A stretch of DNA of 64,000 bases from Tubiluchus corallicola (lineage: Eukaryota > Animalia > Priapulida), in assembly GCA_030141605.1 (NCBI GenBank), contig JAQGDQ010000147.1:124001-188000 (forward strand), read 5' to 3'. Position 1 is the first letter of the stretch. The number at the start of each line of letters is the position of its first letter. This document shows positions 20,733 to 62,400 of this stretch, in pieces. The translations under genes and the position numbers were made by a program. The notes beneath the pieces were generated by a model. That model saw nothing but the letters and a program-made list of their open reading frames with translations. It did no database searches and was not told the DNA's origin.

Positions 20733-21188
20733 GGATAAAATGCAATGACTTGCAGCATCCCAGACAGTTATAATAATCGACCAGGCTCAACCCACACCGA
20801 ATTCCCTGCGTAGATAAAAACAGGAAAGCAATAAACAGTTAACCCAAGCACTAAACGTTGCTACGACAGTAGTTTGTCAGTTGTCAGTATCACTTGCCGT
20901 AATAGACCTTTGGACTTTGAAAGCACATTGACGAGCTCAAATTTTCTAGCGTATTTTTGCGAACTGCTTATTGAAGACCTGAACGCTTGCTTCATTAAGC
21001 CTACTTTAACAGCTGCCCGCCAGCGCGTTACTGGGTGTCTTTTCACATTACTTCTAAAGGCAATAAAGTAGAAAACCTCCCTAAACGTTACTGAAAAGAA
21101 CAAACATATAGGTATAAATATTTAGAGGATGCCACGTTGACTGCTAATAGCTGTTTTTCTCTGTTTATTTTATAGTAAATGAAAAATC

Positions 21189-22352
21189 ATGGCCGCATCA
21201 AATGGACATCAGTCTGCTGATTCGGCGAATGCCAACCAATGTGACGTAACTTTGTCCACGCCAGGTCCTTCAACGGGGAACTTGTCTTCAGTAGAATACA
21301 CTTTTCGTGACAACGTCCTTCAGTTCTTAAAACAAATACCACTAGAGTTTGATCCGGCTCCGATAGGATTCTTCTATGTGGTAACTCTTCTAGCCGGACT
21401 GGTCGCCGTCTTGGGTAATCTCTTGGTGATCGTATCGATGCTATGTTGTATCAAGAAACTAAAACCGTCACTGATCATCATTATTAGCCTCTCCATCGCT
21501 GACATGATTCAAGGACTTGGTGGCGTCAACAAGGCACTCTACGTCTACTTTCATGTCATTCCCAGAAACATTGCATCTTGTTGGCTTAGCTTCACCCTTC
21601 CCTCTTACAGCTTCTTAGTGTCGTCTCTGAATATCATGTTGCTGTCGGGGGAACGGTATATTAGTGCAGTAAGACCGCTTCAGTATAAGAAGACAGTGAC
21701 TCGGAAGCGCACATTCTGGGCCATGGCTATTACCTGGGTTTTTGCAGCATTGTTCTCATTGTTAATCATTTCTGTATCCATCAGGGAACAAATCCACAGT
21801 GGCTTTACCGAACATTTACTGAAGATATGGTATTCGAATTTCGTGTGCGTCTATGACGGCGGTTACCACCAACACTGGCTGAATATCTTCTATTTTGCCT
21901 TGCTAATTTTCGGAGTATTGCAAACCGTCATCATGTACAGTCACATTTACGTTGTTATCATCAGGCGGGGGAACGCAAAGCCAATGGCGACTACCATTCC
22001 AACAGTAGACGTCCGAAACCAAGCTAGAATTCTGTTGACCATCTTCATTATTGTCTTTACCTTTGCCATGTCGTATTTGCCTATCATTGTCTATACAGTC
22101 TTACATATTAAAGTCAGTTTTCATAGCCATTCCTACAGTGAAAGAGTTCTGATTGTAGCAGGGTTCTGTCTCCCTGTCTTGGCTTCAGCAGTCAGTCCTC
22201 TGATTTACGCTCTGCGTTATAACGTAGTGAAGCGCAGCGTGTTGACGACATTACGAAAGGTGACCAGCAAGCAATATAACCTAGAAACGTATAACACTTG
22301 TCCTGGCAGACTGCAAAACATGACATCTTTTTCGGTGAATGAATCCATTTGA
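21189..22352 (+). CDS. Orphan class A (rhodopsin-like) GPCR, 387 aa, intronless CDS
   Basis: Seven hydrophobic segments; GNLLV (TM1), SLSIAD (TM2), Cys at the top of TM3, ERY followed by AVRPLQY, TM4 Trp, SYLP (TM6), SPLIY (TM7); N-terminal sequon NLS. Polypyrimidine acceptor tttatttttatag-type at 21175 suggests a 5'UTR intron. Confidence 0.93.
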   Translation: MAASNGHQSADSANANQCDVTLSTPGPSTGNLSSVEYTFRDNVLQFLKQIPLEFDPAPIGFFYVVTLLAGLVAVLGNLLVIVSMLCCIKKLKPSLIIIISLSIADMIQGLGGVNKALYVYFHVIPRNIASCWLSFTLPSYSFLVSSLNIMLLSGERYISAVRPLQYKKTVTRKRTFWAMAITWVFAALFSLLIISVSIREQIHSGFTEHLLKIWYSNFVCVYDGGYHQHWLNIFYFALLIFGVLQTVIMYSHIYVVIIRRGNAKPMATTIPTVDVRNQARILLTIFIIVFTFAMSYLPIIVYTVLHIKVSFHSHSYSERVLIVAGFCLPVLASAVSPLIYALRYNVVKRSVLTTLRKVTSKQYNLETYNTCPGRLQNMTSFSVNESI

Positions 22353-37339: not shown

Positions 37340-37763
37340 GTTTGTGAAAACAAGCTTACTTAAAACTCACAAAAGTTTTTGAGAATAGGAAGATTTCTTT
37401 GGAAACAAAAATTAGAATATTCTCAGCCTTAGTTGAAACTGTATTTCTGTATAACTCTGAGCTCTGGACATTAAAAGCAAAAGCGTTTCAAAGGCGAAAA
37501 TACAGAAACATTTTGGGTATTAGATGGCCAAAGAAAATTTCAAACAAAGATCTATATGAGAAAATAAAAGAAGAACCTTGGACAACAAAAAGAAAAAGAC
37601 GCCGTTTAAGATGGATTGGGCATATGCTTAGACTACTTGATGATATTCCAGTGAAGATAGCTCTACAACAAGCCATAGAACCAGCTAAAAAAAACTGCAG
37701 GAGGACAAATGTTAACATATTTAGGTTTTGCACAGAAAGATTTAAACACTTCAGCATTGATCC
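37340..37763 (+). mobile_element. RTE-clade LINE C-terminal remnant
   Basis: ORF 37399-37767: KIRIFSALVETVFLYNSELWTL…ILGIRWPKKISNKDLY…RRRLRWIGHMLR, the typical RTE post-RT region. Confidence 0.85.
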
Positions 37764-38090
37764 TTAGAAATAAATGGATCTTGGATATCTAGGCGATGAT
37801 GTTATGTGCACAAAGTCATAGGCGGTGGCAGACTCTACGCACTCAGAGTTTTCAAAGTTTGGCCCATTATCAGTCATTAGGACATCCGGTATGCCATGTC
37901 TAGCTAATATCGATTTCAAATGCACAATAATGTTGGATGGTCTTGTATTTTTACCTAACTTAGCCATCTCAGTATAGTGACTATAATAGTAACCTATCAG
38001 GACAAGATACTGATTACCTTTAATTTCCTTTAAATCTGCTGCAACTTTTTGCCAAGGACGGTGCGGCATCTTTGTGGTAATCAGTGGTTG
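37764..38090 (-). mobile_element. Gypsy/Ty3 LTR-retrotransposon integrase core fragment
   Basis: ORF 37764-38069: PWQKVAADL…YLVLI…ILARHGIPDVLMTDNGPNF…HITSSPRYPRS (rve domain), truncated before the catalytic Glu. Confidence 0.88.
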
Positions 38091-38516
38091 AGCTTAGTCA
38101 TGCAGTCCTGCCCGTCCCATCGAGAATGAAAACTTTTGAAATGCTCCAGCATTGCGAAGGTGTTCATGTTTTTAAATTAAGCTTTTTAGAGAAATTTTTC
38201 AATAATGTTATTGCAAATAAAACAGAATTGACGTCGAACTGACTAGAAAAACAACCCTAAGTAAGAAGAGCATACAAATGTATGCGTTGAAGTTGTCATA
38301 ATCATTTTAGTATTACAGGCTTTTACTTTCTCAGTAGGCCCAACAATTGAATAAAATTATCAATGTGAAATGAAATGTAATGTGTAAGTGTGGCTTACAG
38401 CTCACACGGCAAGTCATACTAAAACTAAACACAGTTGTATACATTTGCACTTTTTGTAGATACATAGCTAGCTTTAAAAGTGATAATTTGTGTTTAGCAA
38501 GTATAAGACAGAAGTC

Positions 38517-41500
38517 ATGAAGCAACCAAAGATCGTTGTTGTTGGGGCCGGCGTTGTTGGTCTATGTACGGCTGTTCGTATCCAGGAAGCTGTGCCCAGC
38601 GCAGTGGTTACAATTGTTGCAGATAAATTGATGGACGATACAACTAGTTTTGTTGCTGGTGGAATGTTCAGACCTCACACACTGAATAGAAATCCCAGCG
38701 AAGTGTGCAGGTATGCTATTCTGTGTATAATAACTTTTGGTAACGTTTTAACTATTTCAGTTGTAATATAATAACAGTAGCGCAAATCACTACAGCAGCA
38801 TGAAAAATTTTAGTTTATAAATGCACTTCAAGAGGTCCACTATATACTGGATCCAGGACGAAAGCAGTGCTTACTCAGAGTGCTGTTAGTGGTTTGAGCT
38901 AAGTTAATTATTAAGGGTTTTGCAAAGGTGATTCACTGAATCAGCAGAGGTGTCTGAGCCACGTGGTATTTGCGAGGTAAACAGGTAGGGTAAACATCTA
39001 GAAGAAGCATCACACTCAGGTGGCCACATACTAGTCACATAGAAAGCACCCACCTATCCACTTGGCCATGAACTTTGCCAAATTGCTACAAGTTGAGACT
39101 CAGTAACAGAAGCTAATGTTACTTTGATCTTTCTTGATTCTGATGCAGTTTTATTATCAATGAGCACATTAAAATGCTAATTTTTAATACTACAGTCATC
39201 ACATAGCCATTGTAGTAAAATAATTCATTTATCTCTTGTTTTTATGGAAGTGTTGTTGTTACACTGTATGATATGTAGTAATTGCTTACTTACATTAGTT
39301 TGTGCAGTTTATGTAGTAGCTGTTTATGCACAGTCGAGCTTTGAATTTATAGATGTATACATTATTATTATTATGCCCTTGTGCAGTTTAAATTTTCGTT
39401 TTAAACATTTTTCTTTCATAGACGTTGGATTGAAGATTCCTTTAAGGAGTACTCACGCCTCGTTCACTCAACAGAAGGTAAAGAGGCTGGAGCAACGCAG
39501 TTGTCACAATATATTTTTGACGACGAACCTTACGTGAGTTTGTAAAAATAATATTAGGTGATATTTTCAAATTATTGTGGTGTTAGTAAGGATTTTATTT
39601 AATAATTTTTTAATTTCTTCACAAGTTTTGTGATGTAATATCATTATGTTTGGAATAAACAAGTGAAATTTCTATCATGCATGTGTGCTTAGATGAAATG
39701 TGATACAAACAGGGAGTTCTAGAGGAAAGCCAACAGTGTTTTATTTTTTTTGTTTCAGACAGAGGCAGGCTTGGATATCATATACGGCTGTAGGGAACTC
39801 ACAGAAGCTGAAAAATCGGCTTTTCCTGTGAAATGGAAGTAAGGAAAGACTTTGCTGTTGTTTTTGTCCATAAATGAATCATCAAAATGCCTTTAATTTT
39901 AGAGTTGTCGAAGGTTGTCTGTTGACTGTCGTCAAAGTCGCATTACTTATTGATTTTTAAACATTGTCTTTATTAACCCTTTGCTAATTTAATTTTTGCA
40001 TCTTAATGTTCAAAACTCATCAAAGGCATTAAATCAGGGCATATTTCTTTAGCTTTGTTTTTTCTATTACACTAAGTCACATTTTTCAGGCATGGCATAT
40101 TTCTTACAACTTTGCTGATAGAACCCAGATACTATATGCCATACTTATTGAAAAGGTAAGCCTACCTAGACAAAGGGAATGGTCAGGCTTTGTTAAATAA
40201 ATTTTTAATGCGTCTATTTTTTTTGTATGTGTTAATATTTTGATCTTCAAAGATACTTTTGCTAGCATCATATTTGTAATCTGTCACTATAATACTGCTA
40301 GTTTCATTCTTATGCAATGATATTATTTTGTAAAGTGTTTCTAATTCATATGTTCAGCGTGTTGAATAGTTAACTTTTAGTAGTCGTAGACTTTATGGTT
40401 GTAGACTTTGTTGCTCTGTTACAAATTAACCTTTGAATAAATTAGGTTTAAGAGCAAAGGAGGAACTGTGGAACAGAGACGAATACATAATTTTGAAGAG
40501 GTAATTGTTTACTGTTTTTTGTTAAATCACTTAAATAAATTGTACTTGAAAAGTAAAAACAAATCTTTAGTAAACTGCCTACATTTTGAACATCATAAAT
40601 TGGATTTTGCTAAATGTATATTATTACAACTGGTTTTCCATTTGCTTTAGATTTCTGTTTGGATTTTTAGTTTGTTGGCAAATGTGATTTGGTGGCAAAC
40701 TGCACTGGTCTCGGCGCACGCTTACTTGCCAATGATAATAAAGTCTTTCCAGTAAGAGGTCAAGTGTTTCGGGTAAGTCTTTTGATGGAGTCTCTTTTTC
40801 GAATTTCTGGCATTGTCAAGCATGCCTGCATCCTTAAAAATTGCAAAAAAACATATTGGCTAATTCTGCTAATTGACTAGATTTTCTAACAAAACTACAG
40901 ACTAATTAGTCGTGTTCTTAATTCTTAAGATTGTTATTGATGATGGAATAAACCCAAAGTTGTTGAATTTTGAAACCAAGTTGGCTTGGGAAAAAGAATT
41001 AGAATGATCACTCAAGCTTGGTAGTCTAACTTTTAAGACATTTGCCTTGTAAGCAAAAAGTCTCCAGTTCAAATCAAGGCTATGTCCTGACTTGTTCACA
41101 TTTCTTTTCTTTCCAGCAAGCTTTGTTTCAAAATTTGTACATTCTAACACAAGTGCGTACATTGGTGTTTTCATGTGTTTGACAGTGTGATTTAGATTTT
41201 GACTTGTAACAATGAAAGTATAAAGTCATTTGTAAACAAGAACCTCACTTGAGATAAGAGTTACAGCTCTTAGATCTTTTTTTAAGCTGTAACCAGTGCA
41301 TTGCAGCTTTCCATCAATCTTTCTAATCAAACAATGTTTTTCATAAAAGACAAAAATGTCAAGGCCATTTCCTAAGTAAACATTACAATGACAGTACTGC
41401 TGTGCTGGTTGTTATTTCAGGTGAGAGCACCTTGGATAAAACATACAATCTATGGGTCATTTAAAGACAGGTTTGATGCTTATATAATACCGCTGTAAGT

Positions 41501-43575
41501 ATGTACATTGCTGTTGTTATTTCTTACAAGTTTTTGTGAACTCGATACTTTGGTACACAGGATATCACTATTATCATTTTATAGTTCTAGATTACAGTTA
41601 AATTACTGTATAATATGAGTGGCAGAAACACGTAGGTGTTTGCTTTTCTGTGTCTACTTGCTTTCTGACGACACACGATCACCCCAGTCGTTTTATTACT
41701 ATTTAGCACAATCGAGATTGTCCATGTGTCAACCTCATTCAGTTTTGTCTCATTCTTTTGCAGGCAATTATAAGCATAAATTGGTAAACCCTTATCTCTG
41801 CTATTAGAATTTTAAAGTTCTATTTTTCCATTATTTTTTTGTTTGGTTAACACTTTGTTTCAATGCAAACACCACTATGCAAACAGTTCAATGAAGTCTT
41901 TAAACTATTGTGAACAAGTTTCCCAACTGAACTGCTGTGAATTCATAATGTCAGCTCTGGTTAGAAATTCTATTACGAATCCAGTATAGATGTTGCATTT
42001 TAATTTATAACAACATCTGATTGTAACCTATTATTTTAAAAAAAATTAGAAAGTTGCCTTTCTGCTTGACTGCCTATAAATCGAGAATTGCTATCACATT
42101 CAAACTGTGAAGTAGACTGTTCTTCATGTGCTGCTGACATGGTTGCACTGACAAAAACAATTAATTTGTAAAAAATGCGTGACAAGAAAGTTGCGAGCAC
42201 ATGTGCAGACTATAATATGCAGACTAATGAGTAAACAAACTGCATGGCGTCAAATAATTAAAGATCAAGTCATTGTCATCATATTCGTTTCAAAGATGTC
42301 AGTTGTGCTGGAAGCAATAATGCTTTTTAAAGCATTTATCGCACAGTTTCACTAACGATAAACAAAAAAATAGTCCAAGTTGTACATAGAGCATCAAAAA
42401 TTGTGTAATACTCCTATCAATGAGAATGTGTTCATGACTTTGGATAATGCTTTCATATGATTGACATTTTTTCTAACTGCAGTTAATTAAATTTCTCATT
42501 TTTGATATTAGCACTGCCGTGTATGTGGTACGGTTTTCCACTGAACTAGCTGCACAAATCCCTGTGTTATTAATTAAACAGCTGATATTACAAAATTAGT
42601 AATTCTTAGCTTGTACAAAAAAAGAATTAATGTGGCCATTTTCAGTCGTGACACAGTTGTGGTCGGTGGATGCAGACAAATTAACAACTGGAATACATCA
42701 GTCAACAAGGATGACAGTGAGAATATATGGAAACGATGTACTACTATGGTGCCTAGCTTAAAGGTAATTTTGTGGCCGAAACTCATTAAATTAACTTGTG
42801 CCTTTTTTAGCTGTTATTATCTTAATTACTCAGATTTTATGATTGAAATGTAATTTCTCAAGCTTATATACTCCGTGAATCAGTAAATATAATTGAAAAT
42901 CAAAACTTTTTTATGTTTTGAAATTATTTGGTATGTTTAGCATGCCGAAATTGTTGGTGAATATGTTGGACTTCGACCGTATAGAGATACTATTCGAGTG
43001 GAAGCGGAAACTATGAAGTTTCCTTCTGGATCGGTTAAGGTAAACTGTTTTGGCTAATCTTAACAGGTGCACAACGTGATGAGTTTGACTTTCCTAATTT
43101 TTTGTTTCTGGAGTGAATTACTACCACAATTTAATATATTGATTTTCAGTTTGTCTTTGTGCCTTGATAGTTTGCTTCATTAGTGATTGATATGTATAAA
43201 CAGACTAAAACTTTGTGGCTTCTAGTCAGCTGTTGGACACTAAATGGACAGGTTTGAATGCTGTTAGGACCTCTGCAGCTTGAGCCTGTAGCAAATTCTA
43301 ACCATGCCTCAACAGTTAAGTGCATTCACTAATGTTGCAGTACTGAAACATTTGTACTTACGACATTATTCATAGTTCCTGTTAAATATATTTGCTTTAC
43401 TAATGTACTAACGCTGCCTTGATTGTGTGGCTGCATGATTTTTGCCTGTGTTTGAATACAGGTTGTGCATAATTATGGACACGATGGTGCTGGAATCTGT
43501 TTCGCTTGGGGAACTGCAGGTACTGCAGCTGAGTTGGCAGCTGCATCGCTCTGGAAAATCAGACCAAAACTCTAG
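38517..43575 (+). CDS. DDO: D-aspartate oxidase / D-amino-acid oxidase family flavoenzyme, isoform using terminal exon A (337 aa)
   Basis: Exons 38517-38710, 39422-39533, 39759-39838, 40090-40155, 40446-40500, 40671-40772, 41421-41494, 42646-42763, 42941-43039, 43462-43575 (1014 nt, phases consistent). Motifs: GAGVVG FAD-binding, VANCTGLGA, PVRGQV, APWIKH, YIIP, VGGCRQ, GLRP, VVHNYGH. The Arg in GGCR resembles DDO (GGTR); DDO versus DAO is not certain. Confidence 0.93.
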
Positions 43576-44645
43576 TGACGGTATGTATTGTGTTGTAGGC
43601 AGGTTGCGTAGATTCTGTATTTATCAACTGCCTGCTAACGAAATAACACAATTTTAACCTTTAAACTTCAATCACTTATCCATTCTCTTAATGCATGGCA
43701 TTGTGTCACTTTAGAGAAAGAATAGTTTAAGAAGTAAAAAGTTCCTTTTTATGAGTATCGAGCTGGCACACACTGTAAGAATGTCTTGTTGTTGTATTTA
43801 AGCAAAATTCGCTCAAAATATGAGGATCAAATGAGTTACCCACATTTTGTTTTTATGGCCTGTAGCTTTGCTGGGGTGCCCTCTAGTGTCTGTTGATCAG
43901 TGGTTCTTATTTATTATGTACAATCTTGAAATAACCTAATGTCAAGTAACACATTTTGCCTCGTTGCAAATTTCCAGATCATGTTTCCTGTCTTTACCAG
44001 AGGTCCAAATTTCAATCCTGTCAAAAACACGTATTTAACAGCAACGCACTGTACTTTAGAGCTTTTCCTATATGTATTTTATAATGTATTTAACACACTC
44101 ACCATCAAGAATGACATTAAAATTTATTTCCTACCTCTGTTCTCGCCCCCGATAACTAAGAATATGACCTGTAATTGCTTTAAATGCAATGACAGTTTGA
44201 ATGAGAGTTACATAGACTAAGTCTCGTAGGACTTTTGGCTTGACAAATGCCAAAAACAAGGACGACTTGTGATGCTCACTATTGACTCTCCCAAAATAGT
44301 AACTTCACAAAAATAGGCACTAGACAATTTCTATTTATTATTTTTCTTTTCTGCTGTATTTCTTTTATTTGCATGGAAGCATACTTGTTATAATTCACAA
44401 CTTTTTACAAGTGAGTAAAAATCTTTTCGGCATTTACGTAATATTTCATAATTTTCGTTGCATCTGGTTATGACAGGTGAAAATTTGTTTAACTTTAAAC
44501 AAAGTGCTAATTTATGTAAAATAGGTAGCCTTTTTCGGCGGGAATGTGTGATAAACAATCTTAGGATTGAAATTGGAATAGCATCATGTTTGCACACCAT
44601 TAGCAAGTGTGAATCTAATTTTATAAATACTTTCATTTGTGACAG

Positions 44646-44759
44646 GTGGTGCACAATTATGGGCACGGTGGGAATGGAATTTGCCTTGCTTATGGAACTG
44701 CTGTGCATGCTGCAAACCTGGTACAGCAGCAACTTGCTTTGAGAATTTCTAAACTGTAG
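44646..44759 (+). CDS. DDO: Alternative (duplicated) terminal exon B of the D-amino-acid oxidase gene
   Basis: Acceptor tttcatttgtgacag|, phase 0, VVHNYGHGGNGICLAYGTAVHAANLVQQQLALRISKL*; same 114-nt length as exon A; canonical PTS1 -SKL; AATAAA at 44891. Confidence 0.88.
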   Translation: MVHNYGHGGNGICLAYGTAVHAANLVQQQLALRISKL

Positions 44760-45461
44760 GTTTCTCCACAAGATGCGCACATTTTTACGTTTTCGCTTAT
44801 TTAATAATACTGAATAGGCTGGAAATTTTATTTTAAAAGATAAGCAGAACAATTATTATGATTGATAAATGCAGCGTGATAGTTGCTATGAATAAATATT
44901 TATGTAGGTAAGACCTAATTACGCATGTCTAATTACACATTATAATATTGAAATTGTTTGTTAATGAAAACTGCAATGTTCTTATCAAAGAAAGAGTATA
45001 TTAGCAGAATATTCATACCATCATTTAGTTTAGTAAATTTGTACTACATTTTAGAAGTTTGTATGAAGCATAAATAGTGGAAAACACAAAACCTTATGGT
45101 TTTAGACTTAAGTTTTAGGTGCTCCTTTATTACTTTTTTTCTTAACAGTTAGAACTACATTATAAATTTGGTAATGTAATTTTTATAGGAATGTTAGTTT
45201 TAAGTTTACAAAATGCATGTTATTGTCTTTCTATAAGACAATTTTTTCATAAATGGTAGTTAAAATTTTGATATGAGTAGAAGTCAAGGCAACATCAAAT
45301 CACGATAGTCAGTGTGACTCTATAACTCTTAAACTTTTTGCTTTGACTTAGAGTTGTGAATTTAAATAGTGTTTATTGCAACATTAACTACTGGTGCTTA
45401 AAGAAGTGTAATGTGTATAAAGTGTATAGAAATGTAATAAGTATAAAGAAGTGCTTGAAGG

Positions 45462-46175
<714 letters not shown>

Positions 46176-46229: not shown

Positions 46230-47200
46230 CCTGGAGTGATTATTGGTAATGTTGAACTTACTAAATCGCCAGAAAATGACACATTAAAGGTGCCTTGCTG
46301 AAAAGCTCCACGTTTTTATCCACTGACTGAGAAATTAGTCTAGCGGTTATATATTGAGTTGTTACAATTGTATCGATTGTACTAGCACCCATTATTGATT
46401 TAAACGTTTCATCATCTGATGCCACTATATCAAATTTTCCATTAGTATTAACGCTTGCATTATGCAGTATATGACCATGATCATTTGTGCACTTGTCCTT
46501 TGTAAAGTGCACAAAGCATTGATATCACCTACTGCCATGACGCCATACAAACTATGCAATTGCATCTTGGAAATTAATTAACCGTTCAGTGCAAGCTTCC
46601 AGAGAGTTTGGCATAACATAAGTTCAACCTACTAGTAGTTTAATGTTCATTATATTAATGATGACCCAGACAACATCAATGCCTGGATTTTCTAACTTGG
46701 GAACACGACAAATGATAATATTGTTTCTTGCAAGTGAAGCGCAGCCACCTGAAATGCCCGTGACATGATTTACCATACTATCTGTAATTACTAAGACCAA
46801 ATAAGTTGCTGTCTTTACGAGAATTTTGGTTTCCTGCACACAAACCAGGTCACATTTAATGGCATATTTAATGGAATTTAATTGTCTAAAGCAATATTAG
46901 ATTGAGCAGAAAGAAATTTATATTAATTTGCAAAATGCTAACTTTCATAAGGTTTGATTATTGAACATAATTTTGTTTCAATTTTTCAGCTAATTTTTGT
47001 AAATTTCAGTCTTTGCTGCTGCTCGATTCGTGACTTTCCGTGCAGTTTGCACACTGTTTGGCTTTCTACAGCTAACTATACATTCTGAAGCCTTATGAAA
47101 AAGTGAACATTTACAACACATCAATTCTCTCGAACACCATTTGGTAGCGTAATGTAAGTCAGCTTGGGTCAGTCAAATGCACCTTTATGGTCTGTTTGTT
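46230..47200 (-). mobile_element. Degenerate LINE 5' portion: ORF1 CCHC zinc knuckles plus APE endonuclease domain
   Basis: Minus strand: CCKCSLFHKASEC and, after a frameshift, CANCTESHESSSSKD (~47020-47120, knuckle-like); then DLVCVQET, SGGCA, NDHG and ETFKSIMGASTIDTIVT (APE motifs) with stops and frameshifts. No RT domain follows; ends near the (GA)n tract. Confidence 0.7.
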
Positions 47201-49590: not shown

Positions 49591-52500
49591 AGGCATACAT
49601 CACCCAGACAGCGCAAACATCTTCCGGAAAGACACAAATCTTGACTCTAATTGCCAACTTCATTGAATCGCCACGGCAGTTGATTATCTCCAAACATTTG
49701 TCATACCTTACGAATAAAAATAGTCGGTGCTTTATAATTTTTAAGCGTTTAAGCCTTTGTAACATTTGCACAGAATGTTACAATATAAACAAGTAAGTTT
49801 TTTAGATCTTACTCAAACCTCAAGCCAAATTAAAATTTTACAATAACAAGATCCAGGAACTTTAAATTTAAAGCCAGACTGTCACACATCAAGAATCTAG
49901 ATGATTACATGACTAAATACAATTGCAAATGAACTGTTAATCCAAAAAGCCTATGTAAAAACATTTTGAGAATAAAAAGTTGAATTTTTCACATTTCAAG
50001 TAATCCAGTTACTTTCTTTTACTGCTCAAATTATACCAATTTCAACATTTGAAAAAGAATTAAACAAACTTTAGCGAATTGGCAAATATTCTACGGTGAT
50101 TCCTATGGAGATACTGAATGGGAAACCCTTTAAATGTGTGTCCATCAGGTACAGCAAATCTGATAGCATGAGCAAATTCTTCACTACCTGCAGTTACACC
50201 TAAATAAATAATGAAAAGATGCAAGAGTTAATGTACTGCTTGAGATATTATCAAAAAATCTTACTCCTATCCGAAAACAGTATTTAAGAACAATTTCTAT
50301 ATATTGACTATATTAAAAGTACATTATGTCTGTGCTTACATAGCAAAAACGTCCATAAGTAGACAATTAAGTTTTTCTAGTTACCCACACATCCTGAATC
50401 TCTATTTCATGAAGATTATTTTGATACTGAGTTCATCAAACTACGTTAATACTAAGCTTAGATATCCCATGTTGAAGTTGAGGTGCACCTTACGCACTGA
50501 AAAACAATTTCCACAAAAACAATTAGCAACTGTATGAAAGGGTGGTTGCTATGGACTTTGCAAAAGCATATTGAAGTTATGTTTAAATCCAGTATATGGT
50601 AGACTCTTGCAAAGGGTGATCTAGGCTTGACAGTAAAAAAACAGCAAGCAAAATAACAGCTTCCTCGAACTACTATCGGAGTTTTCCACAACTGTAGTAC
50701 TAGTTTTTAGGTACAGAAGTAGATAAGGTAAAAAATTTAATGTTTAATATTTTTTGAACAGTTTCCTGACGATTTGATGCTAGAATATAAATTCAATATA
50801 TTTGGAGTTTGTTTTTATAAAAAATATGATATTTGACCCAATTTTCGATGCATTCTACTTTGAAGCACCATAACGTAGTTTTAACTATACCTACTTATGG
50901 AAGGTTTTTGTTTGCAAGCACACATATAACAGCATTGTAGTGAAGTACAAGACAATTTAAGATGCCATCTAACTAATTCATTATTAGATTAACCTTCTTT
51001 ATTTGTGAATATCATTTGTCTTATTATATCATCGAGTATGGTTAGAATATATCTACATGAAACATAGTACATGTACAATGTAGATATTAATTACTTTTGT
51101 AGTGTGTGAACCTATATATATATATATATATATACATACATACATACATACACACACACACTACAAAACGTATCATATGGAAGGGTTAATAATCCACACC
51201 CAGTTAAATGAAAAAAGAAAGGTTTTAATACTTGATAGTTGTTACACACCTGTATTCCTTTCTATTTCATATGCAGCCAGAGCTGGAGTAAGTAAATAAC
51301 TGAGCCTTTCATCCCACATTGTTGACAGACCTTGATCCTGAAAAAGATTAAGTATACATTACTGAGAGTAAACAAACTCTGGAAAAATAAAAATGCATGT
51401 ATACCTTACAGATCGTGACAAAATGCAAGGTTGTCCAAGATTAAATTAGTAAAATTACAAAAAAATGATACAAAATTTTAGGAAATAATAACAACTTAGC
51501 GAAGACCTTCACAGATGTCTATACGTGGCTTCTTAGGAAAGCTTCGGGACAAAAGTGACAGATAACAGGCTTGATCTGTATTGCCTTTAGAGAATTTGCA
51601 CAAAACACCATAAAAGAATGCTACCATGACCAAAAACAGCTAATAGATGCGCTTGACTTCAGCTAATGCTGCCACCTCACCTATCTGGTACGTTATCTCA
51701 CCTAGCTAAAAACTTTTCTAACATATTCTTATTATCGACCAGTTTCACTTCAGACCAGAAGTTGCTATTTGTACCGGGAGATTCATTGTACTAAGCTGGA
51801 TCTTTCTGAGTCTCAAATATAATGTCGATAATAATATCAGCAAATGAACGAATAAATTTGTTTGCACAATTGTTTAGACTATAATTGTTAAAACATATTC
51901 TACCGTTCTGTGTTCTGTAACCAGTGCTTGTAACTGTAGTTCTAGATTTGCGCTAAGCAAAGGAGCATCCAATGTTGGAGCACATAGTGATATGGCACAG
52001 ACATACACCGGTTGAGAAATTGACGATAGTGTCTCCTTCGACATTGCCTTCCAGCGAGATTCATTGAGCAAATCAAAATGGCAGACTTCCACGGCTTCAG
52101 ACGGCTAAAAGAAAAAACTAAAATAAAACAATACCTCAAACAATAAACATAAAGATTACTATTTATTGTTTAATCAAGTTACATCAGCACAGCAAATGTA
52201 GATATTTAAACACACACTCTGCTGTTTGTGCTATCAAGAGCAGCTTTATCATTCTAATTATTTACAATAAACGGCCAATCAGGCAATACTAATGCGAAGA
52301 CATGCAATCGCATGCAGTGCATACTTTCTTTGTTTTCTCGAAAATTGTTCATGATATCTATTATCCAACACAGAATTTTTGTTACTGATATTTTGTGTCG
52401 ATTTAACAAATTTGCATGTTTGATTTACTTATTTGATTATTATAGCAATGTCACACTTCATAGTATCAATGTTGGCTTTGTTCACTGTAGCCAAGATTTC

Positions 52501-55500
52501 TGCTAACAACACATTATTTCAATATCTAATCTTACTATCATGCCTAACAAAAACTTTCGGACATGATGAATGTACAATGGCATCTAAAAAACTTCACACA
52601 CAAACTGTATTCTGAATTAGCCAGGCAGTCCAGTCTCTGGCTGACTAACTCTTGTTTTTTGTCATTGTAGAAATTATGATCAGTTATTACTGCATACAAA
52701 GGTCAACGATGAGAAACGTGATCTGTTAAAATGCTACCCTATGAGCCTAATGCCAATTGTCAGAAAGGTCTTTAAACCAAATTAAATGAGTATTGTGTTT
52801 TTATACAATAATAATCTTCTTGTCGATGTACAGCATCATTTTATATTAATTATACAATGCTTATAGAAAAAATAAAGCGGTAACTCAAATTTAAATTATT
52901 ATACAATATACATTTCTTAATTGTACTACTCACTTGAATGTTAGCATAGAAAGCTTCATGGTTAAAAAGACAACCAACTGTTCTGTATGTATGCAAAGGT
53001 TGGGGAGGAACAATAACCCCAGGCTCATCCACCTGAATAGGCTGATGCAGGAACCTGCAAAACATAAATAAAACAAATGAAAGTATACTTTCGTATATGT
53101 GTACATATGTACACATGTACATTAGTAAATAACTGTGAATGCATTATAATGTGAAGTCATTTAATAATGTGATTAACTGGGATCTTGTATAACAAACTTG
53201 TCAATTAGCAATGAAGTGAGTAGAATGCCATTTTTACAACATTTAACACCCTTTCTTTAAGACAGATGATGAAAATACAGTGATCTTTCACTAACCACTT
53301 ACCAAGAGACCTCTCAGAGTCATTTGAAAAACAAAAAATTCTAATCATGCCTACAGATAGAAAACAAAAAAATGAAGACAAAATAATGTCACCTGTTTCC
53401 TGTGAGACTCTCCCAAAATATGGTTTCACTATCAGGGGTATTAGTGAGAACCCATGAATGAGGTGTTCCATTACCCTTAGTACCAATGCACACGTAAGCG
53501 TCTAAACCAAATCCTAACAGCAGATTACACAGCAGGATGGAATGGTTCTCGTGGTCCTGGAATAATGCATATATACATTTATATATGTTGTCAACAGCCA
53601 CAAAGTGACAATTCTTATCAGTTACAAGATTTTATGCATTCGCATTTAAAAACATTGGGAGCAGGATATCTGGCATAAAGGCACAAGTTTTTACTGTTGA
53701 TCACATGACAAATTTGCGCAAGTTTACAATTTCACTCGCTGTTGATAAGGCCTGTTTATTCTAGTTCAGCTGCTGTGTAGAGGCACTCCGTGTCACATAG
53801 CAATGACAGTGTCCTGCTACCCATTCGAAACTACTGGCCACTTTTCGTCCTGGAATTATTAGGATTTTGTGAAAGCAACTAATATCTTGAATTGCATAAG
53901 AAACAAGAACAGACAGGAAGAGACCCGAATTTACAACCTTTAGACCAAACACCAACAAGAATCATGTTGAGCGAGTCAATCAAACAAGAACAGAAGCAAA
54001 ATAGACTAAGTTTCTTTAGCGTCACTTGCCTTTTAAATGTCAACATGCACTTTAACAAATAACCTCATTAGAATCATAGGATACTCTAAGCAAAATACTA
54101 ACTTTTTCTATTGAATCGGGCAAAATTGATTCCCAAACTAAGGCCCCTAAGGCTCTTTATCTCTATACAATCTTTAAAATGGAGTTGTCTCTCCAAGAAG
54201 AGTTAAAGCAAGACAGCAAGAGCTAGAGACAGACACACCAATCCTAGAGCATTTACACCATATTACACAGATACTTCTTGTATTCGGGTTACTCATTAAC
54301 AAAGTTAAATGAATACTCGAAGCATTTACTTCTGATGAACATATTTTTGTTAAAGCCTTCTACCTCATCCCAGTTTTGCATAAAGTTAACAAACCTGTTT
54401 TTTAAATGGCCTTGTCAACACATGAATTTCACAATAATTGCATTTTGTTCCAGGCTCCAGAAAAAGACAAGCTTAATTGTTTTCTAGTACAAAACAGCCA
54501 TTGTTTCATTGTTTTCTAAAGGGATTGTTAAGTACTAAAGAACAAGACATTATTGACCAGTAGGGTAACTCCCATTTTCAGTAAGTTGTAGCAGTGTGAT
54601 TTTGGAACTTTCAACATTAACCAGTTCTGTGAAAAAAATTTGGTTCAATAATGTTTGATTTAGCCAAAATGTTTTATTAGAGTCCACTATCATACAGTAA
54701 TGTACATATGAAAGAACAAAATGATATAGTATTAAAAAGGCAATGACATTGCTTAAATGCATATCAGCAAAATGTTCAGTAACCAAGTTAATTAGCACAG
54801 ACTGCACTAATGCATGTACTTGCAGTATATAAATTTTTATAACTAATTATTCATCATTAGTTAGGCTTAATAAGAGACTATTTTGTTTAATATAGTACTA
54901 TAATGGTAATGGACTCTATCGAAATGTGTTGGTCGATAAACATTATTAAGTGAAGTGAAGACAAAGCTATGATATACCGATGTTCGAACTTGTTTTACAA
55001 AAACTTTTTTATTAATTCAGAAAGATGAAAAATAGAAAAGAAAACAAATGAAAAGTGAAAACGGAGATATTGAATATTAGCAGATACAAATGAGATCCTT
55101 GTCAAGAACATGTGATATGGCTTACATTATTTACTACACAGTATCAATGTCTACCATCTTCAATCATCTTGCTGCTTATGATGTTCATTGCCCTACTCCG
55201 TGGCCATACCCATCAAGGGACAACTGCTTGGGAAACTTAACCACTTGCATCTGCGATCGTGGACGACATAATGACCTACAGCACTGTCAGTTTGTCAGAT
55301 GCGAAAACACTAATCAAGATGCTTTGAGTGAAGCCATTGCAAGAATTGACAGACCCATACAAGGCATAGATTTGCTTCACTACAAAGACTTCTTGCTGCC
55401 GCGAAGATTTCTGGATGGCAAAATTGCTACTACTGTTATTTTGGAAGAGGGTCACATTGGTTTGAACAAGATTGGTTTAACAGCATTAGAAAATGATACA

Positions 55501-58500
55501 TTTGCTGGTCTTTCAGGGGTCTCTAAGATCCTTGTAAGAGGTCACCAAAACATGAAAGTCATCGAACGCCTCACTTTCTTGCCACTAGAGAACTTGAGTG
55601 AGATTGTAATTGTTGACAATCCGTCTTTGGAGAAATTACAACTGAATTTGGAAACAATGTCAAACCTTACAGCTTTGGATCTATCGGCAAATAACCTTTC
55701 TTTCGTTGAGATGCCTCTATTTCATCCGAATGTGAAGACGCAACACGTGCGATTGACCTTCCTAGGAGGTCAAGAAACGAACCTTCAATTTTGTCGAAGT
55801 AAGTGTAATTTAAACATAAAAATTTTTGGCAGTTTTACCTATTTCACTTTACAGAGTAGTAGTATATGATGTTCAACATTTATGGGAACTTGCATAGAAT
55901 GTATAATGCATACATTGCATAATGCATAAGTTCAAGTACAAGCAGTGTTGTGCAAAGAAATTTAATTGCGAGCTGCAATTTTTAAAAACAAGCTACTTAA
56001 TATACTGGTTACATCCAGGAATCCTTTAGAACAAAAAGGTCACTTGGGAGGGAAGAACTGATCCTGCTAGTGCAGATAGTCACTAGAAATTAAACTGGAT
56101 TATAGCCTTCACTACAAAGTTGTTTGATGAACTTTAAAACTGGTGCAAGTTTACCACCACCTGGATGAAATAGTAAAAAGTTCCTGGCAAAAAGCAGTTT
56201 ATCAAACAAAGGAAGATCATCAATGGATTAATTTTGCTGAGATTTTTAAGACAAAGATCTTTTTAACTGGAAGATGCATATTTTGATTAACAGTATGCTT
56301 TGTAAATCAGAAAGTTAAAGCCAATTATAAAATTGACAGTGTTTATAATGTTATTTCTATCTAGGCAACAAATTAATTTGTAACTGCAGCCTTGCATGGG
56401 TGAAACAGTCAACTTGGAAAAACAATGACAGAACACTTGGACAGTGCAGTGGACCACCAGTTCTTAGGGGACAGTTCATTTTCAAGCTGAGGCTAGAAGA
56501 CTTTGGAAATTGCGACACTGGTGGTGTATTAGCATCAGGTCAGGAAAGCTACTGCTACATTACTGGCTTACAATATTTCATGACAGCAGTTATCATACTC
56601 AACTTACCATTGTAGCACAATTCGTTAAGAATACTGCTTTTCTCCTTGATCGATGATCAGAGAGAATGAGACTGCATGTAAGTTTTTCAATGAAATGTAG
56701 AACTCCACATTTCAATGTGGATTACAATGTGAGTCAAATATATACTGACAAAACATCGTTAAGTACATAAACAAACTCGGAAGATGTACAATATGAACAA
56801 AAGAGTAAGTAGTAGCTCTATGATAATAAAAGTAATGGCTCACAATTAATTAGCAGTATCTAAATTATTACAGCAAAATAAAAAGTACAAATGAAATGCT
56901 CAGTTGTCTAATACGATCAGCAGTTTGATTAGTTTCACTATGTTGTTATATGTTTCACTATATGTTGACTACGATAAAACTACAATTACATGCTCGACAT
57001 ATACAAAAATACGCATTACCAATTTTAGAATTACATTGAAAGCACCGTTATTTAATTATATACAGCAGAGCCTATTTTCAGAAGATAACTCCACAATTCT
57101 TGTCTAATAAAATGGTTTTTGAACTCAGCAGCCGGTAGTCAAATTTCTAGCTTAACTTTATGTTTAAGAAAAATATTCTGAAACAATTACCAATTCTGAA
57201 GCAATTTATGGAAATGATTAATTATTACCTATTAATTAATATTTGTTGTTATTTGCAAAAATTAAACAAAATATATACATATATACAATAAAACATATAT
57301 GGTATAGTTTTGCATATTATGCAGAGTGTATCCTGAATAATCTATACTCTTATATTAATATTCTTGGTATTGGCTTAATATATTTATTTATATATATATA
57401 TAAGATTCGAGGCTACAGCCCGGACGAGGGCACCATTTGCGGCGATCTGTATATCAAACGAAAGGTCTCGATCTAGTGTCGTACCATTGATGGTTTATTT
57501 TTTGAATTGGGCCCACCGGGAGGAGGGGGAGGCGAAAAACCCCCAAAAATGGCTCTTTTTCGGCCGTTTTTTGCAAAAGTTATACGGCTGAGATGTAGAG
57601 AACGGGAACGGGCCGAGGGGGGGTGCTGGGTATGGATAGATAGTCCGTTCAGCGGTGGGTGTAGTAGGCCTATTTAGAATTCGCGAGAGGGCCAGGGCGC
57701 CCCGCAACGGGCGTTTTCCCGGACCCAACTCGCGATTTTTTCGAAATTTTGACCAAACAGCCTGCGGAAAAAACGTTCTAGCGGCGCCCGGTGGGACTCT
57801 CGGAAGGAGATATATAGCTCTTTACAAAGAGGAAGGACAGGGCTACACGATGATGTGGGATATATTTTAGGGCAGGTCCACCGAGAGGAGTATCAACGAG
57901 TTAGTTAGGAGTTCTATTTTCGGCAATTTTCACTTAGAAAACTGCTGACGCAAAGGCATTGTTGTGACGTCATCCATTGTACTCTGTCTATAATCTTATA
58001 ACTTTAATTCAGCAAAAAGCTGCTCCAGGCTTAGTTAAACAAACAGTAGACACGATGTTACGGGCTTTGTGTTATAAATGTGGACTAGGTAGGATGTTCG
58101 CGTATTATTGATTACACGTGTATTTATACGCAAAATCTTTTGCGGGGCCTTTGCTATTTATTATATTATAGCACATAGTTTCAACTTTGTGAAAAATGTT
58201 TGGAATGGTTTTGTTGTAATGCTGTACTGTTGGTGCTTGTGCTATAGGTGTTGTCATCGTTGCCACCGTCATCATCATCATCATCAACATCATGATCACC
58301 ACGTGAGGTGGTGGATTTGATGTGGTGTGGTGGTGGTGTGCTTTGTGTGTTGTGCTATGGATGGTGTGGTGGGGTGATAGGGTGTGTTGGGTGTGGTGTG
58401 GTGTGTGGGTGGTGCAGTGTGGTGTTATGGTGTGGTGCAGTGGTATGGTGTGGTGCAGTGTGGTGTGATGTGGTGGAGTCGTATGGTGTGGTTGGTGTGG

Positions 58501-59444
58501 TGTGGTATGTGGGTCGTGCGGTGTGCTGCAGTGGTATGTTGTGGTGCGGTGTGGTGTGATGTGGTATGGTGTGGGTGGTATGGTGTGTAGGTGGGTGGGT
58601 GGTGTGGTGCAGTGTGGTGTTGTGGTGTGGTGCTGTGCGGTGTGATGTGGTGGAGTATTATGGTGTGGGTGGTGTGGTGTGTGGGTGGTGCGGTGCAGTG
58701 GTATGGTGTGGTGTGATGTGGTGGAGTCGTATGGTGTGGGTGGTGTGGTGTGGTGTGTGGGTGGTGCGGTGTGCTGCAGCGGTATGGTGTGGTGCGGTGT
58801 GGTGTGTAGGTGGGTGGGTGGTGTGGTGCAGTGTGGTGTTATGGTGTGGAGCAATGTGGTGTTATGGTGTGGTGCTGTGCAGTGTGATGTGGTGGAGTAT
58901 TATGGTGTGGGTGGTGTGGTGTGGTGTATGGGTGGTGCATTGGTATGGTGTGGTGCAGTGTGGTGTGATGTGGTGGAGTGGTATGGTGTGGGTGGTGTGG
59001 TGTGTAGGTGGTATGGTGTGGTGCAGTGTGATGTGATGTGGTGGAGTGGTATGGTGTGGTGTGTAGGTGGGTGGGTGGTTTGGTGCAGTGTGGTGTTATG
59101 GTGTGGTGCTGTGCGGTGTGATGTGGTGGAGTGGTATGGTGTGGTGCAGTGTGGTGTGATGAGGTGGAGTGGTGTGGTGTGGGTTTTGTGTTGATTTGTG
59201 CACAAAATTCTTTTTGTGGGGTTTGGCTAGTATCTTCATTAATTTTCAATGAATCACTGGAAAAAGGACATTTGCTTGAGATAGTAAGGAAATACACATT
59301 ATAAAAACAAAATAAATACAAAAGACAATACAGTGATTCTAGAAACATAGTTTCACTTTTCTGCAGGCACATTCGACAATGAACAATATATATACATATA
59401 TAGAACAGTATATCCAAATACTGTTTTATATGTTTATGTATATG

Positions 59445-59476
<32 letters not shown>

Positions 59477-62400
59477 CATATACATAAAAATATATTATGG
59501 ATAAAGCGTTCAGCGTCAAATTTGTGAACTTACTACATGAACAATAATTGAAAAAATAAGCTGAGGAAGCAACAAATGCTTATACGATAACCTTACATAC
59601 TTGTGCATATTTTGTAATATGACAGATTCGATACATGTAACAAGAATTATTTTAAATAAAGATATATTTATTTATGACATACCCCCTTTTTACGAGCCAG
59701 AAAAGCATGTATGCTAGTCCATATCTCTACGGCATCATCAAAACCAACCGTGGTGTTTCTTTCATACGGTATCAGTGAGACGAATCTGGCACACTGACGT
59801 GGGGAGTCGAGCAACCTGCCAGCTCGCAACGGTTTCACGTAACAACAAACGGGTCTGTTTGTAGCCGTTTCATCCTAATAAATTAAATGGGCAAAATGAC
59901 AATAACACGTTACTAATGATAAAAATAATACTGCCTTTTAGTGAGGGTTTGGGGCTATTTTCATAAAAGTTGTATAATTCACTTGGGTTTTGGTAGCACA
60001 ATCGATATATTCAAGTGCGATAAAATGGGCCATCAATGCTTAAAGAAGGTGTGTCAAAGAAAAACTAACCTGTGCAAATATTTTGATCTGTCTCTTGCTA
60101 TGAGTATCTCGTATTTGTAAATATTCCTGCCACCAATGTTTAGCATAAACTAAGAACAAATGTTCCTTCTCTGAAGTTCTTTTTCTTTCCATTTCCAGTT
60201 GCATGTGAACTATATCGGGTGAAATCGGTTGAACTAATGCTGGAATGAGTTCCATTTGAATGGCTAAGACTCCAACAGTAACTTTTGCTTCTTTGCCTAA
60301 ATAGAGATCCAGAAAATTAGGCTTAACCTTCTTTGAAATATTCTCAAATTTAATCATTAATGGTAACTGCTTCTAAAACAAAACTAACATTTAATGATAA
60401 CTTCAATCACTATCACTACTGCTGTTGCTACCAATATTACTGTAAGTACAGACACGCCTGAATTGTCACGTTGTCAAGCAAAAGCAAAAGTAAGCTAATA
60501 ACATTTTCAGCAAAGTCCAATAATCACAATGGTTAAGATTAACAAAACATGTGCACATCTATGTAATGTAGTTGCCAACAGTATCTATAGTACTTTAAAT
60601 GCTAAGTTAAGTAAGCAGAAATGTGCATTCTATTAACTGAGACTGCTAGGTGAAATAAGATTAGCAGAGACCACAGAATATGCCAAATACTAGTATGTGA
60701 TATGAATGACATTTAAATTCTGAATCATTAGATTTTTGTAATCCAAAATAAAATATAGTGATCAAATTCAAACTGTGCATTCTTTACTGATGTAGACTCA
60801 CAATAGATAAAGCTAAATATTAATACTATTGATAGAATTTGTGGAAATAACAATCTTTGAACTAACGCTAAATAACTGTAGATAATCACAACTTTAAATG
60901 TTGTGCTAAAGGAATCTCACAAAAAGATGAATCTTAGTTTGTCACTGGACAATGTTTTTGTATTTTGTGATTGTGCTGAACTGTATGGTTGTCAGATTTT
61001 GAATTTGTCAATAAACATTATAAAACAATTAAAGGACATATTCTTTACCGATTCCGCACAGCTGAATTTCGCAGTTTCCAGCTGAGTTTTCAGATTCCAA
61101 TATAGTCCTCCACTCTAAGCTGTATGACGATAATAAAGTAGTTTCTCCAGTTGGACATGACCTCGTTAAGACAATATGCACATGATCGGCAAAAGACAGT
61201 AAATCGCTTTCATCGGGTGCTACATAAAACAAACGTTAAGCATAAATATAGTCTCTGTCTTTCAGAGAAGAGCTGTTTTCTAACAAAAAAAGCAGTAAAA
61301 AATTCAAAACGATTCACATTTCAGTAAGACACTGTCAGTGTTATCAGGCAACCTCTGAAATGTGTTACACGCAATATGAAATGTGAGCATGTCAATGTAA
61401 TACACTCATTGCCAAAAACACTTACCAGAACTATTGCTATGTAGTTCAAAAAGAAAATTTTCGCGAAAATCTGGTTCGCACGCACAAGGCACTGGATTTG
61501 AGCAAAATCTTTGACCTCGAAAATATAAATGTAACACTAATACTGCTGGATTCTGACCTAGGCAAACAATAAACATAAGTTAATATTAAACAGGATTTTA
61601 TTAGGTCTGGTATCAATTACTGTAAATACCTATAAAACAAGGATTATATACAGAATTACGGATGTTAATATACGTATAGCGTATATACATTAATATAATA
61701 TTATATCTGATATTACAGCAAATGCTCATAATACTGCTTGAGCAAAGCCTTGGTACACATTAAAATTAATAAATTATGATACCTGGCAATGTCTGTTGGA
61801 CTTCCACGAAGTCCAGGAATGACTTTCCTCCACATATTTGCAAGTAAATGTACCTCTTGGATGGATCAATGCTGACTAGAATATACAAATGAGTAATTTT
61901 AACAACAATAGCTGTAAGTGTGAATGAAGTATGTGAATAAACATATGCAACCACAGTTAGTTATCATCCTTTTTAAATTTTCATCATGTTAGACTTATAT
62001 AAACTACAATTATCAAGAAACATACCTCTGCTAGCAGGCACTGGTGCATCGGCTAGTGACCTGGTACATTTTAAAGCTTGCAATACATCCTCAAGTAATC
62101 CCCTTGATTTTATTTCCTGCAATGAAAAGAAAAACATAAAATGAGATGCAAAATAAGGTTTTATCTTCCCAGATCTTGCATACAGACAGAAATTCATCAA
62201 AAATCATCAGAAATGACACATGCAGAGCTAGTGAATAAATTACTAATTTGAGGTAGAATATCAAATATGAAGAATAAATAGATAATAAGACAAAAATATG
62301 AATGCTAAGCATCTTTATGCAACGAAAATTTGCAGTTTGTAAAGCGTCTTTCTAATTATTAAAACTAAAAGCAAACCACATCTACATTTACTTAGCTATA

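What the first reader, a model, noticed from the sequence alone, without database searches (positions are those of the whole stretch)
43462..44759. D-amino-acid/D-aspartate oxidase with two intact duplicated terminal exons that swap the GHGG motif and the peroxisomal signal
Seen: after exon 42941-43039 there are two paralogous phase-0 exons of identical length (114 nt), each with an acceptor and its own stop. A (43462-43575) is VVHNYGHDGAGICFAWGTAGTAAELAAASLWKIRPKL*. B (44646-44759) is VVHNYGHGGNGICLAYGTAVHAANLVQQQLALRISKL*. Conserved residues often use different codons (GTT/GTG, CAT/CAC, GGA/GGG), neither has an indel, and no other exon appears duplicated. Known: HNYGHGG lines the FAD/substrate site in DAO and DDO; SKL is a canonical PTS1 and PKL a weaker variant. 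Inference: one gene makes two enzymes by exon choice, one canonical and peroxisomal, the other with Gly-to-Asp in the flavin-binding loop and possibly different activity or localisation. I do not know of this arrangement being described for the family.
Basis: partly seen in the sequence, partly recalled or inferred. Interest (0 to 1): 0.85.

Follow-up and report, generated by a model that had tools for sequence, protein, structure and literature searches.

The report
D-amino-acid oxidase with two swappable tails
A D-amino-acid-oxidase-family gene, likely from a priapulid worm, carries its last coding exon twice, and one probable RNA contig joins the first copy to the second, so the gene likely makes two enzymes, by keeping or skipping the first copy, that differ beside the flavin cofactor and are both predicted to stay peroxisomal.

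Summary
The two exons are real, at the stated coordinates, and old: 21/37 aa identical, dN/dS about 0.23, no other exon duplicated. Nine shared exons plus A or B give 337-aa proteins closest to Priapulus caudatus DDO-like.

One contig of probable RNA run X2 joins A to B. A is therefore a stop-bearing cassette with B as its 3' UTR, and B codes only if A is skipped. That skip junction was not seen.

Asp308 is unique (0 of 366 homologues; Ser, Glu and Tyr occur). It sits next to, not at, the substrate-binding glycine, at the start of the flavin-side helix. The substrate residues lie in shared exons. PKL ends 10 of 338 homologues, so a localisation switch is unlikely.

RefSeq already lists the same last-exon swap in the clam Mercenaria, apparently independently, and swaps of the substrate-loop exon in sea urchin and amphioxus. 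The mechanism is of a known kind; nine literature searches did not find it described for this family.

The parts
38517..38710 (+). Coding exon 1 (ATG, GxGxxG FAD-binding motif, His54 equivalent)
   Evidence: Pfam PF01266 E=4e-8
39422..39533 (+). Coding exon 2
39759..39838 (+). Coding exon 3
40090..40155 (+). Coding exon 4
40446..40500 (+). Coding exon 5
40671..40772 (+). Coding exon 6
41421..41494 (+). Coding exon 7: substrate loop (Tyr at the Arg216 position, Tyr223 equivalent). Single copy here; the matching stretch is swapped between isoforms in sea urchin and amphioxus
42646..42763 (+). Coding exon 8 (Arg237 equivalent)
42941..43039 (+). Coding exon 9 (GLRP, Arg278 equivalent), ends in phase 0
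43462..43580 (+). Exon A: duplicated last coding exon (GHDG, ends PKL, stop 43573-43575) plus 5 nt of UTR up to its own donor
43581..44645 (+). 1,065-nt GT-AG intron between A and B, skipped by the X2 contig; crossed unspliced by X1 contigs as far as 44530
44646..44759 (+). Exon B coding part (GHGG, ends SKL); out of frame 3' UTR when A is included
44891..44896 (+). AATAAA, candidate poly(A) signal after B
   Evidence: use not tested

Best explanation
This DAO/DDO-family gene has two intact copies of its last coding exon, and it likely makes two 337-residue flavoenzymes by including or skipping the first copy, both predicted to be peroxisomal and to differ in flavin-site tuning rather than in substrate. 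Shown: A carries a stop and, 5 nt later, a donor, and one probable RNA contig joins A to B. In that message B is out-of-frame 3' UTR. Inferred: the A stop escapes EJC-type nonsense-mediated decay because it lies within 50-55 nt of the last junction (a mammalian rule). Inferred: skipping A joins exon 9 to B and gives the canonical GHGG/SKL enzyme. Inferred: Asp308 at the start of the C-terminal helix, whose dipole stabilises reduced flavin in human DASPO, weakens that stabilisation or changes FAD binding, so A is a kinetically different but folded enzyme.
For: A>B join: the loose end matches 43550-43579 at 28 of 30 nt (next best in the window 19), and the skipped part is GT...AG. Both copies are constrained: pN 0.33 against pS 0.69, dN 0.43 / dS 1.92; identity by codon position 26, 24 and 14 of 37. 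In a neutral-decay simulation at 0.95 substitutions per site, 0 of 20,000 runs kept an open frame with 21 or more identities; 0.24% did at 0.5 and 12% at 0.3. B still looks coding: it has the higher profile score, SKL, and 3 of the 4 listed X2 differences are synonymous. Non-Gly residues occur naturally at this site (Ser 6, Glu 3, Tyr 1 of 366), and it is the first residue of helix 308-335 in the Priapulus model (pLDDT 94.9). Substrate-amine Gly313 (hDAO) / Ser308 (hDASPO) is the next residue and is Gly in both exons. The same swap appears in Mercenaria RefSeq X1/X2.
Against: No 43039>44646 or 43039>43462 junction was seen. Only 1 of 70,053 X2 records was laid, and X2 is only guessed to be RNA. 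That contig runs unbroken across A>B, so skipping may be rare or absent in that sample. Three further X2 differences in B were not listed, so their effect is unknown. Asp occurs in 0 of 366 homologues, and exon A has the longest branch in a poorly resolved 39-column tree, which also fits partial loss of function. Priapulus caudatus has one annotated protein with a B-like tail. No structure with FAD could be modelled for the window's own proteins.
Confidence: 0.6

Rival explanations
1. A is always included and is the only coding end. B has recently become a purely non-coding 3' UTR exon and has not yet decayed.
For: The only junction seen is A>B, at contig depth 61 with no branch at B's start.
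Against: B is the better family match (64.2 against 51.6 bits). It keeps its frame and PTS1 despite near-saturated synonymous divergence from A, and 3 of 4 listed differences between the window and X2 are synonymous. That last count is small.
Confidence: 0.15
2. Both messages are made, but the Asp-bearing A protein binds FAD poorly or is inactive and serves as an off-switch or dominant-negative partner for B. This would work like the inactive alternative-last-exon forms of UGT1A (recalled, not checked).
For: Asp in 0 of 366 homologues. The site is in the YGHGGxG motif (PMC9844085) next to flavin-contacting residues. A is on a long branch.
Against: A keeps the rest of the motif, the W-G-T-A helix start, Leu325, Leu330 and a PTS1. 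Ser, Glu and Tyr occur at the same site in other proteins. An inactive form would not need this much conservation.
Confidence: 0.15
3. One reading: A and B are true alternative terminal exons, with A polyadenylated inside the A-B intron. The A>B splice is then a minor extra form.
For: X1 contigs cross A's donor unspliced at depth 124-181 over 43492-44530, against 2-15 on the neighbouring exact-match contigs. Variant poly(A) hexamers lie at 43733, 44116, 44414, 44550 and 44622.
Against: X1 shows no splice joint anywhere in the gene and crosses other introns unspliced, so it is probably DNA with uneven depth. Contig depth is a poor measure of expression. The protein products would be the same as in the best explanation.
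Confidence: 0.08
4. B is the last exon of a separate paralog whose upstream exons are missing.
For: None found.
Against: The window has no N, no second copy of any upstream exon was found in 64 kb, and A is joined directly to B.
Confidence: 0.02

Closest known systems
Tandem-duplicated-exon C-terminal substitutions (human catalogue PMC8373072: 77 C-terminal events among 236, e.g. GNAO1; passages and supplement table searched)
   Same: Homologous duplicated last coding exon gives two C-termini. The paper names alternative poly(A) and frame-shifting exon skips as the general routes to C-terminal substitutions.
   Different: DDO and DAO have 0 hits in that table. The paper assigns the duplicated-exon C-terminal events to alternative poly(A); here the upstream copy has its own donor 5 nt after its stop.
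Mercenaria mercenaria DDO-like isoforms X1 (XP_045193020.2) and X2 (XP_045193029.2), RefSeq models
   Same: Identical over residues 1-306; all 12 differences fall in the 37-aa tail that starts VVHNYGH.
   Different: Both tails keep Gly at this site and end SKL or SRL. They group with Mya and one unnamed protein (98/92 support), apart from A and B, so the duplication is likely independent. The genomic layout was not seen.
Strongylocentrotus purpuratus (X1, X2, X4) and Branchiostoma (X1, X2) DAO/DDO-like isoforms, RefSeq models
   Same: Homologous-looking alternative segments inside one DAO/DDO gene.
   Different: They swap the substrate-loop stretch (window residues about 204-227), which is single-copy here.
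Priapulus caudatus D-aspartate oxidase-like XP_014679777.1
   Same: 55.6% identical over 320 aa, sister on the tree (SH-aLRT 99), no indel across the exon 8, 9 and 10 boundaries.
   Different: One annotated protein in its cluster, with a GHGG tail ending SQL; its genome could not be searched for a second exon.
Human DASPO (PDB 6RKF) and DAAO (2DU8); PMC8260693 section 6 and passages, PMC6279847 passages
   Same: Same fold (orthologue model TM 0.92-0.93); His54, Tyr223, Arg237 and Arg278 equivalents kept.
   Different: Arg216 is Tyr. The four human DDO isoforms differ by exon skipping and an N-terminal extension, not by a duplicated exon.
Vertebrate ACOX1 duplicated internal exons (listed in the supplement of PMC8373072)
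   Same: A peroxisomal flavin oxidase diversified by duplicated-exon choice.
   Different: Internal mutually exclusive exons, not a stop-bearing last exon.

Membership tests
DAO/DDO family (PF01266, DAAO-like) | N-terminal GxGxxG FAD fingerprint | tested here: met
   Exon 1, PF01266 33.6 bits, above the 27.9 cut-off
DAO/DDO family (PF01266, DAAO-like) | Arg-Pro substrate-carboxylate pair (GxRP) | tested here: met
   GLRPY, Arg279 (feature from PMC9844085)
DAO/DDO family (PF01266, DAAO-like) | YGHGGxG-type motif, isoform B | tested here: met
DAO/DDO family (PF01266, DAAO-like) | YGHGGxG-type motif, isoform A | tested here: not met
   YGHDGAG; Asp in 0 of 366 motif-bearing homologues, though 10 of 366 have another non-Gly residue
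DAO/DDO family (PF01266, DAAO-like) | C-terminal PTS1 | tested here: met
   SKL and PKL fit the consensus in PMC8919083; import itself not tested
DAO/DDO family (PF01266, DAAO-like) | DAAO fold | tested here: inconclusive
   Met for the Priapulus orthologue model; the window's spliced proteins were not folded
DAO/DDO family (PF01266, DAAO-like) | FAD-dependent oxidation of D-amino acids | not testable with these tools
   needs an assay
Vertebrate-type D-aspartate oxidase | Arg216 for the acidic side chain | tested here: not met
   Tyr214 aligns there, as in Priapulus, Mercenaria and Aedes; the loop is gappy, so the alignment is approximate
Vertebrate-type D-aspartate oxidase | His54, Tyr223, Arg237, Arg278 | tested here: met
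Tandem-duplicated-exon C-terminal substitution | Two homologous, phase-matched, adjacent exons in one gene | tested here: met
Tandem-duplicated-exon C-terminal substitution | Upstream copy present in spliced RNA | tested here: met
   One X2 contig joins A to B across a GT-AG intron; X2 is RNA by guess only
Tandem-duplicated-exon C-terminal substitution | Downstream copy joined in frame to exon 9 and translated | tested here: inconclusive
   No joint listed; indirect support from sequence constraint

The most novel reading that the evidence does not exclude
Invertebrate DAO/DDO genes are a repeated target of exon duplication, at the substrate-loop exon in sea urchin and amphioxus and at the flavin-helix exon in a clam and this worm. 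Here the main message encodes the odd form: an Asp at the head of the flavin-stabilising helix that retunes or silences hydrogen peroxide output, with the canonical enzyme made only when that exon is skipped. Splicing would then act as a redox switch on D-amino-acid breakdown.
Probability: 0.25. Interest if true: 0.65.

Novelty: new member of a known kind. Interest (0 to 1): 0.42.

Why it matters
The gene offers a natural pair of enzymes that share 300 residues and differ only in the loop and helix beside the flavin, a clean test of how that helix sets DAO/DDO chemistry. The recurrence of homologous-segment swaps in clam, sea urchin and amphioxus gene models suggests that invertebrates diversify D-amino-acid breakdown by splicing as well as by gene duplication. 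The splicing mechanism itself is well known.

Tried and rejected
No whole genome is held for this window and no eukaryote genomes are searchable, so exon A could not be sought in related genomes. The run search listed no holder on record as RNA; this is no evidence on expression. X2 did not cover exons 1-9 or the first half of A; this lack of cover is not used as evidence. X1 depth was not used to rank A against B. An X1 contig starts exactly at 44645, which could mark a graph branch between two junctions into B, but X1 looks like DNA, so I set it aside. The exon 1 word search found none among 176 candidates. The C-terminal profile search (354 hits among 698 candidates, best 120 listed) returned no priapulid-like fragment and no Asp variant. 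The Atlas search with exon A gave unnamed short clusters only. The last-exon tree is too short to order events: A+B as one clade was not rejected (p-AU 0.385), nor A+B+Priapulus (0.154), and five further clade tests did not finish. In-frame readthrough from A into B was rejected: B is out of frame after A. A localisation switch was judged unlikely. Literature searches listed no paper on duplicated exons in DAO/DDO genes or on this Gly position (search 64 was for the NMD rule). I judged most from listings and abstract starts, and the library lacks most subscription journals, where much invertebrate DAO/DDO biochemistry is published. Earlier scan notes held nothing on this gene.

Full report
Observation. 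They share 67 of 114 nt and 21 of 37 aa without indels, and 12 of the 21 shared residues use different codons. Nine upstream exons with GT-AG introns end in phase 0, so either exon completes a 337-aa protein. A profile of 103 homologues over all 3,506 six-frame pieces of the window finds only the last exon twice: B 64.2 bits, A 51.6, next 5.3. The flanks of A and B show no similarity beyond the exons, and the window has no N. A missing paralog is therefore excluded.

Identity. The best of 150 representatives is Priapulus caudatus D-aspartate oxidase-like, 55.6% over 320 aa. The shared 300 residues are its sister in a 34-row tree, SH-aLRT 99. The animal is likely a priapulid other than P. caudatus (inference). 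The orthologue's model has the DAAO fold, TM 0.92-0.93 to human DAAO and DASPO. The human DASPO residues His54, Tyr223, Arg237 and Arg278 are kept, but Arg216 aligns with Tyr in a gappy loop (roles from PMC8260693 section 6). The substrate is therefore open, and all five positions lie in shared exons.

Two runs were listed, neither on record as RNA. In X2 (RNA by guess), 1 of 70,053 records was laid: a 181-nt contig covering 44645-44760 with 61 loose letters before it. The 30 loose letters shown match 43550-43579, the end of exon A and the 4 nt after its stop, at 28 of 30; the next best match in the window is 19. The skipped 1,065 nt begin GTATGT and end TGACAG. Exon A thus runs to 43580 and is spliced onto B, where B is out of frame. 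The stop ends 5 nt before the junction, inside the 50-55 nt zone that escapes NMD in mammals (PMC1854916 passages; applying it to this animal is inference). B can code only if A is skipped. No joint from exon 9 to either copy was listed. The contig is unbroken across the join, so A inclusion may dominate in that sample; contigs drop rare forms, so this is not absence.

Run X1. 40 of 2,906,401 records were laid, with no splice joint, no listed differences and contigs crossing introns. It is probably DNA and may be the window's source. Its depth rises to 124-181 over 43492-44530. This could be an A-specific 3' UTR or uneven amplification; I leave it unexplained.

Selection. A against B: pN 0.33, pS 0.69, dN 0.43, dS 1.92; identity by codon position 26, 24 and 14 of 37. 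Letting one copy decay neutrally from B, an open frame with at least 21 identities survived in 0 of 20,000 runs at 0.95 substitutions per site, 0.24% at 0.5 and 12% at 0.3. Both copies have been constrained for most of their history; a recent loss is not excluded. X2 differs from the window at 7 of 116 nt on B. Of the 4 listed, 3 are synonymous and one is Gln>Glu; 3 are unknown. In the 30 nt of A seen, the stop and PKL are kept, with one Arg>Lys and one UTR change.

The Asp. Position 308 aligns with hDAAO Gly312 and hDASPO Gly307 (numbering). The next residue binds the substrate amine in hDAAO (Gly313, PMC6279847 passages) or contacts the flavin by its backbone in hDASPO (Ser308), and it is Gly in both exons. 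Of 521 proteins fetched, 366 carry the motif: Gly 356, Ser 6, Glu 3 (one cluster), Tyr 1, Asp 0. In the orthologue model 308 is the first residue of the helical stretch 308-335. In hDASPO the dipole of helix A11 stabilises reduced flavin; equating the two helices is my inference. An acidic residue at a helix start is structurally plausible (general knowledge) and would be expected to dampen that dipole. Tuning is my best guess, and loss of activity is the rival.

Targeting. PKL fits the PTS1 consensus and is counted as PTS1 for zebrafish Idh1 (PMC8919083 passages). It ends 10 of 338 homologues, amphioxus DDO among them. Both forms are likely peroxisomal; relative import strength is untested.

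Precedent. I compared 11 groups of annotated isoforms or close paralogs. In one, Mercenaria mercenaria X1 and X2 are identical over residues 1-306 and differ at 12 positions, all in the same 37-aa tail. In three (S. purpuratus and two Branchiostoma groups) the exon-7-equivalent substrate loop is swapped. Among 431 pairs at least 95% identical over the 100 residues before the tail, only three Mercenaria pairs and one unnamed pair with frayed ends had tails at most 70% identical. The Mercenaria tails group with Mya and one unnamed protein (98/92), apart from A and B, which points to independent origins, though the 39-column tree is mostly unresolved. These are database models; I saw no genomic layout for them. 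P. caudatus has one protein in its cluster, closer to B (22 of 37) than to A (20 of 37).

Literature. The human catalogue has 77 C-terminal tandem-exon substitutions among 236 events, and its supplement has 0 hits for DDO or DAO (PMC8373072 passages and table search). Human DDO isoforms arise by exon skipping and an N-terminal extension. Searches listed nothing on duplicated exons in this family; most were judged from listings, and subscription journals are largely missing.

Verdict. A real, old, stop-bearing duplicated last exon in a DDO-like gene: a new member of a known kind, already mirrored in a clam gene model. The open points of interest are the unique Asp in what may be the main message and the repeated use of exon duplication in this family.

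Noticed in passing
P0285, P0286, P0287 (S. purpuratus); P0209/P0424, P0425/P0196, P0241/P0423 (Branchiostoma): RefSeq isoforms of DAO/DDO-like genes swap a homologous stretch matching exon 7, the loop that holds human DASPO Arg216 and Tyr223; three versions in sea urchin, two in amphioxus. This could switch substrate specificity by splicing and may be more striking than the present finding.
   Followed up: partly
P0176 and P0409 (Mercenaria mercenaria): The same last-exon swap as here; a second locus (P0408/P0410) carries the X2-type tail.
   Followed up: partly
window 43492-44530: Run X1 depth is 124-181 here against 2-15 on neighbouring exact-match contigs, with adapter-ended contigs starting at 43801 and 43812; unexplained.
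   Followed up: partly
window 44906-44912: A strong donor-like AGGTAAG lies 10 nt after the AATAAA behind exon B. If used, it would put A's stop far from the last junction and expose the A message to NMD.
   Followed up: no
window about 45495-46170: Roughly 680-nt AG microsatellite downstream of exon B.
   Followed up: no
window 21183-22352 (+): 389-aa single-frame rhodopsin-family GPCR (PF00001, E=1e-23).
   Followed up: no
window about 51870-62200 (-): CEP76-like gene (PF24656 E=5e-18), with an LRR-containing 262-aa frame on the opposite strand at 55081-55869 inside its span.
   Followed up: no
window 13023-14234 (-), 37348-38093, 46624-46896 (-): Fragments that read like retrotransposon reverse transcriptase, integrase and endonuclease (recognised by eye, not searched).
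   Followed up: no
P0131, P0151, P0152 (unnamed contigs): Full-length DDO-like proteins with Glu at the site where exon A has Asp; a natural comparison for the acidic substitution.
   Followed up: no
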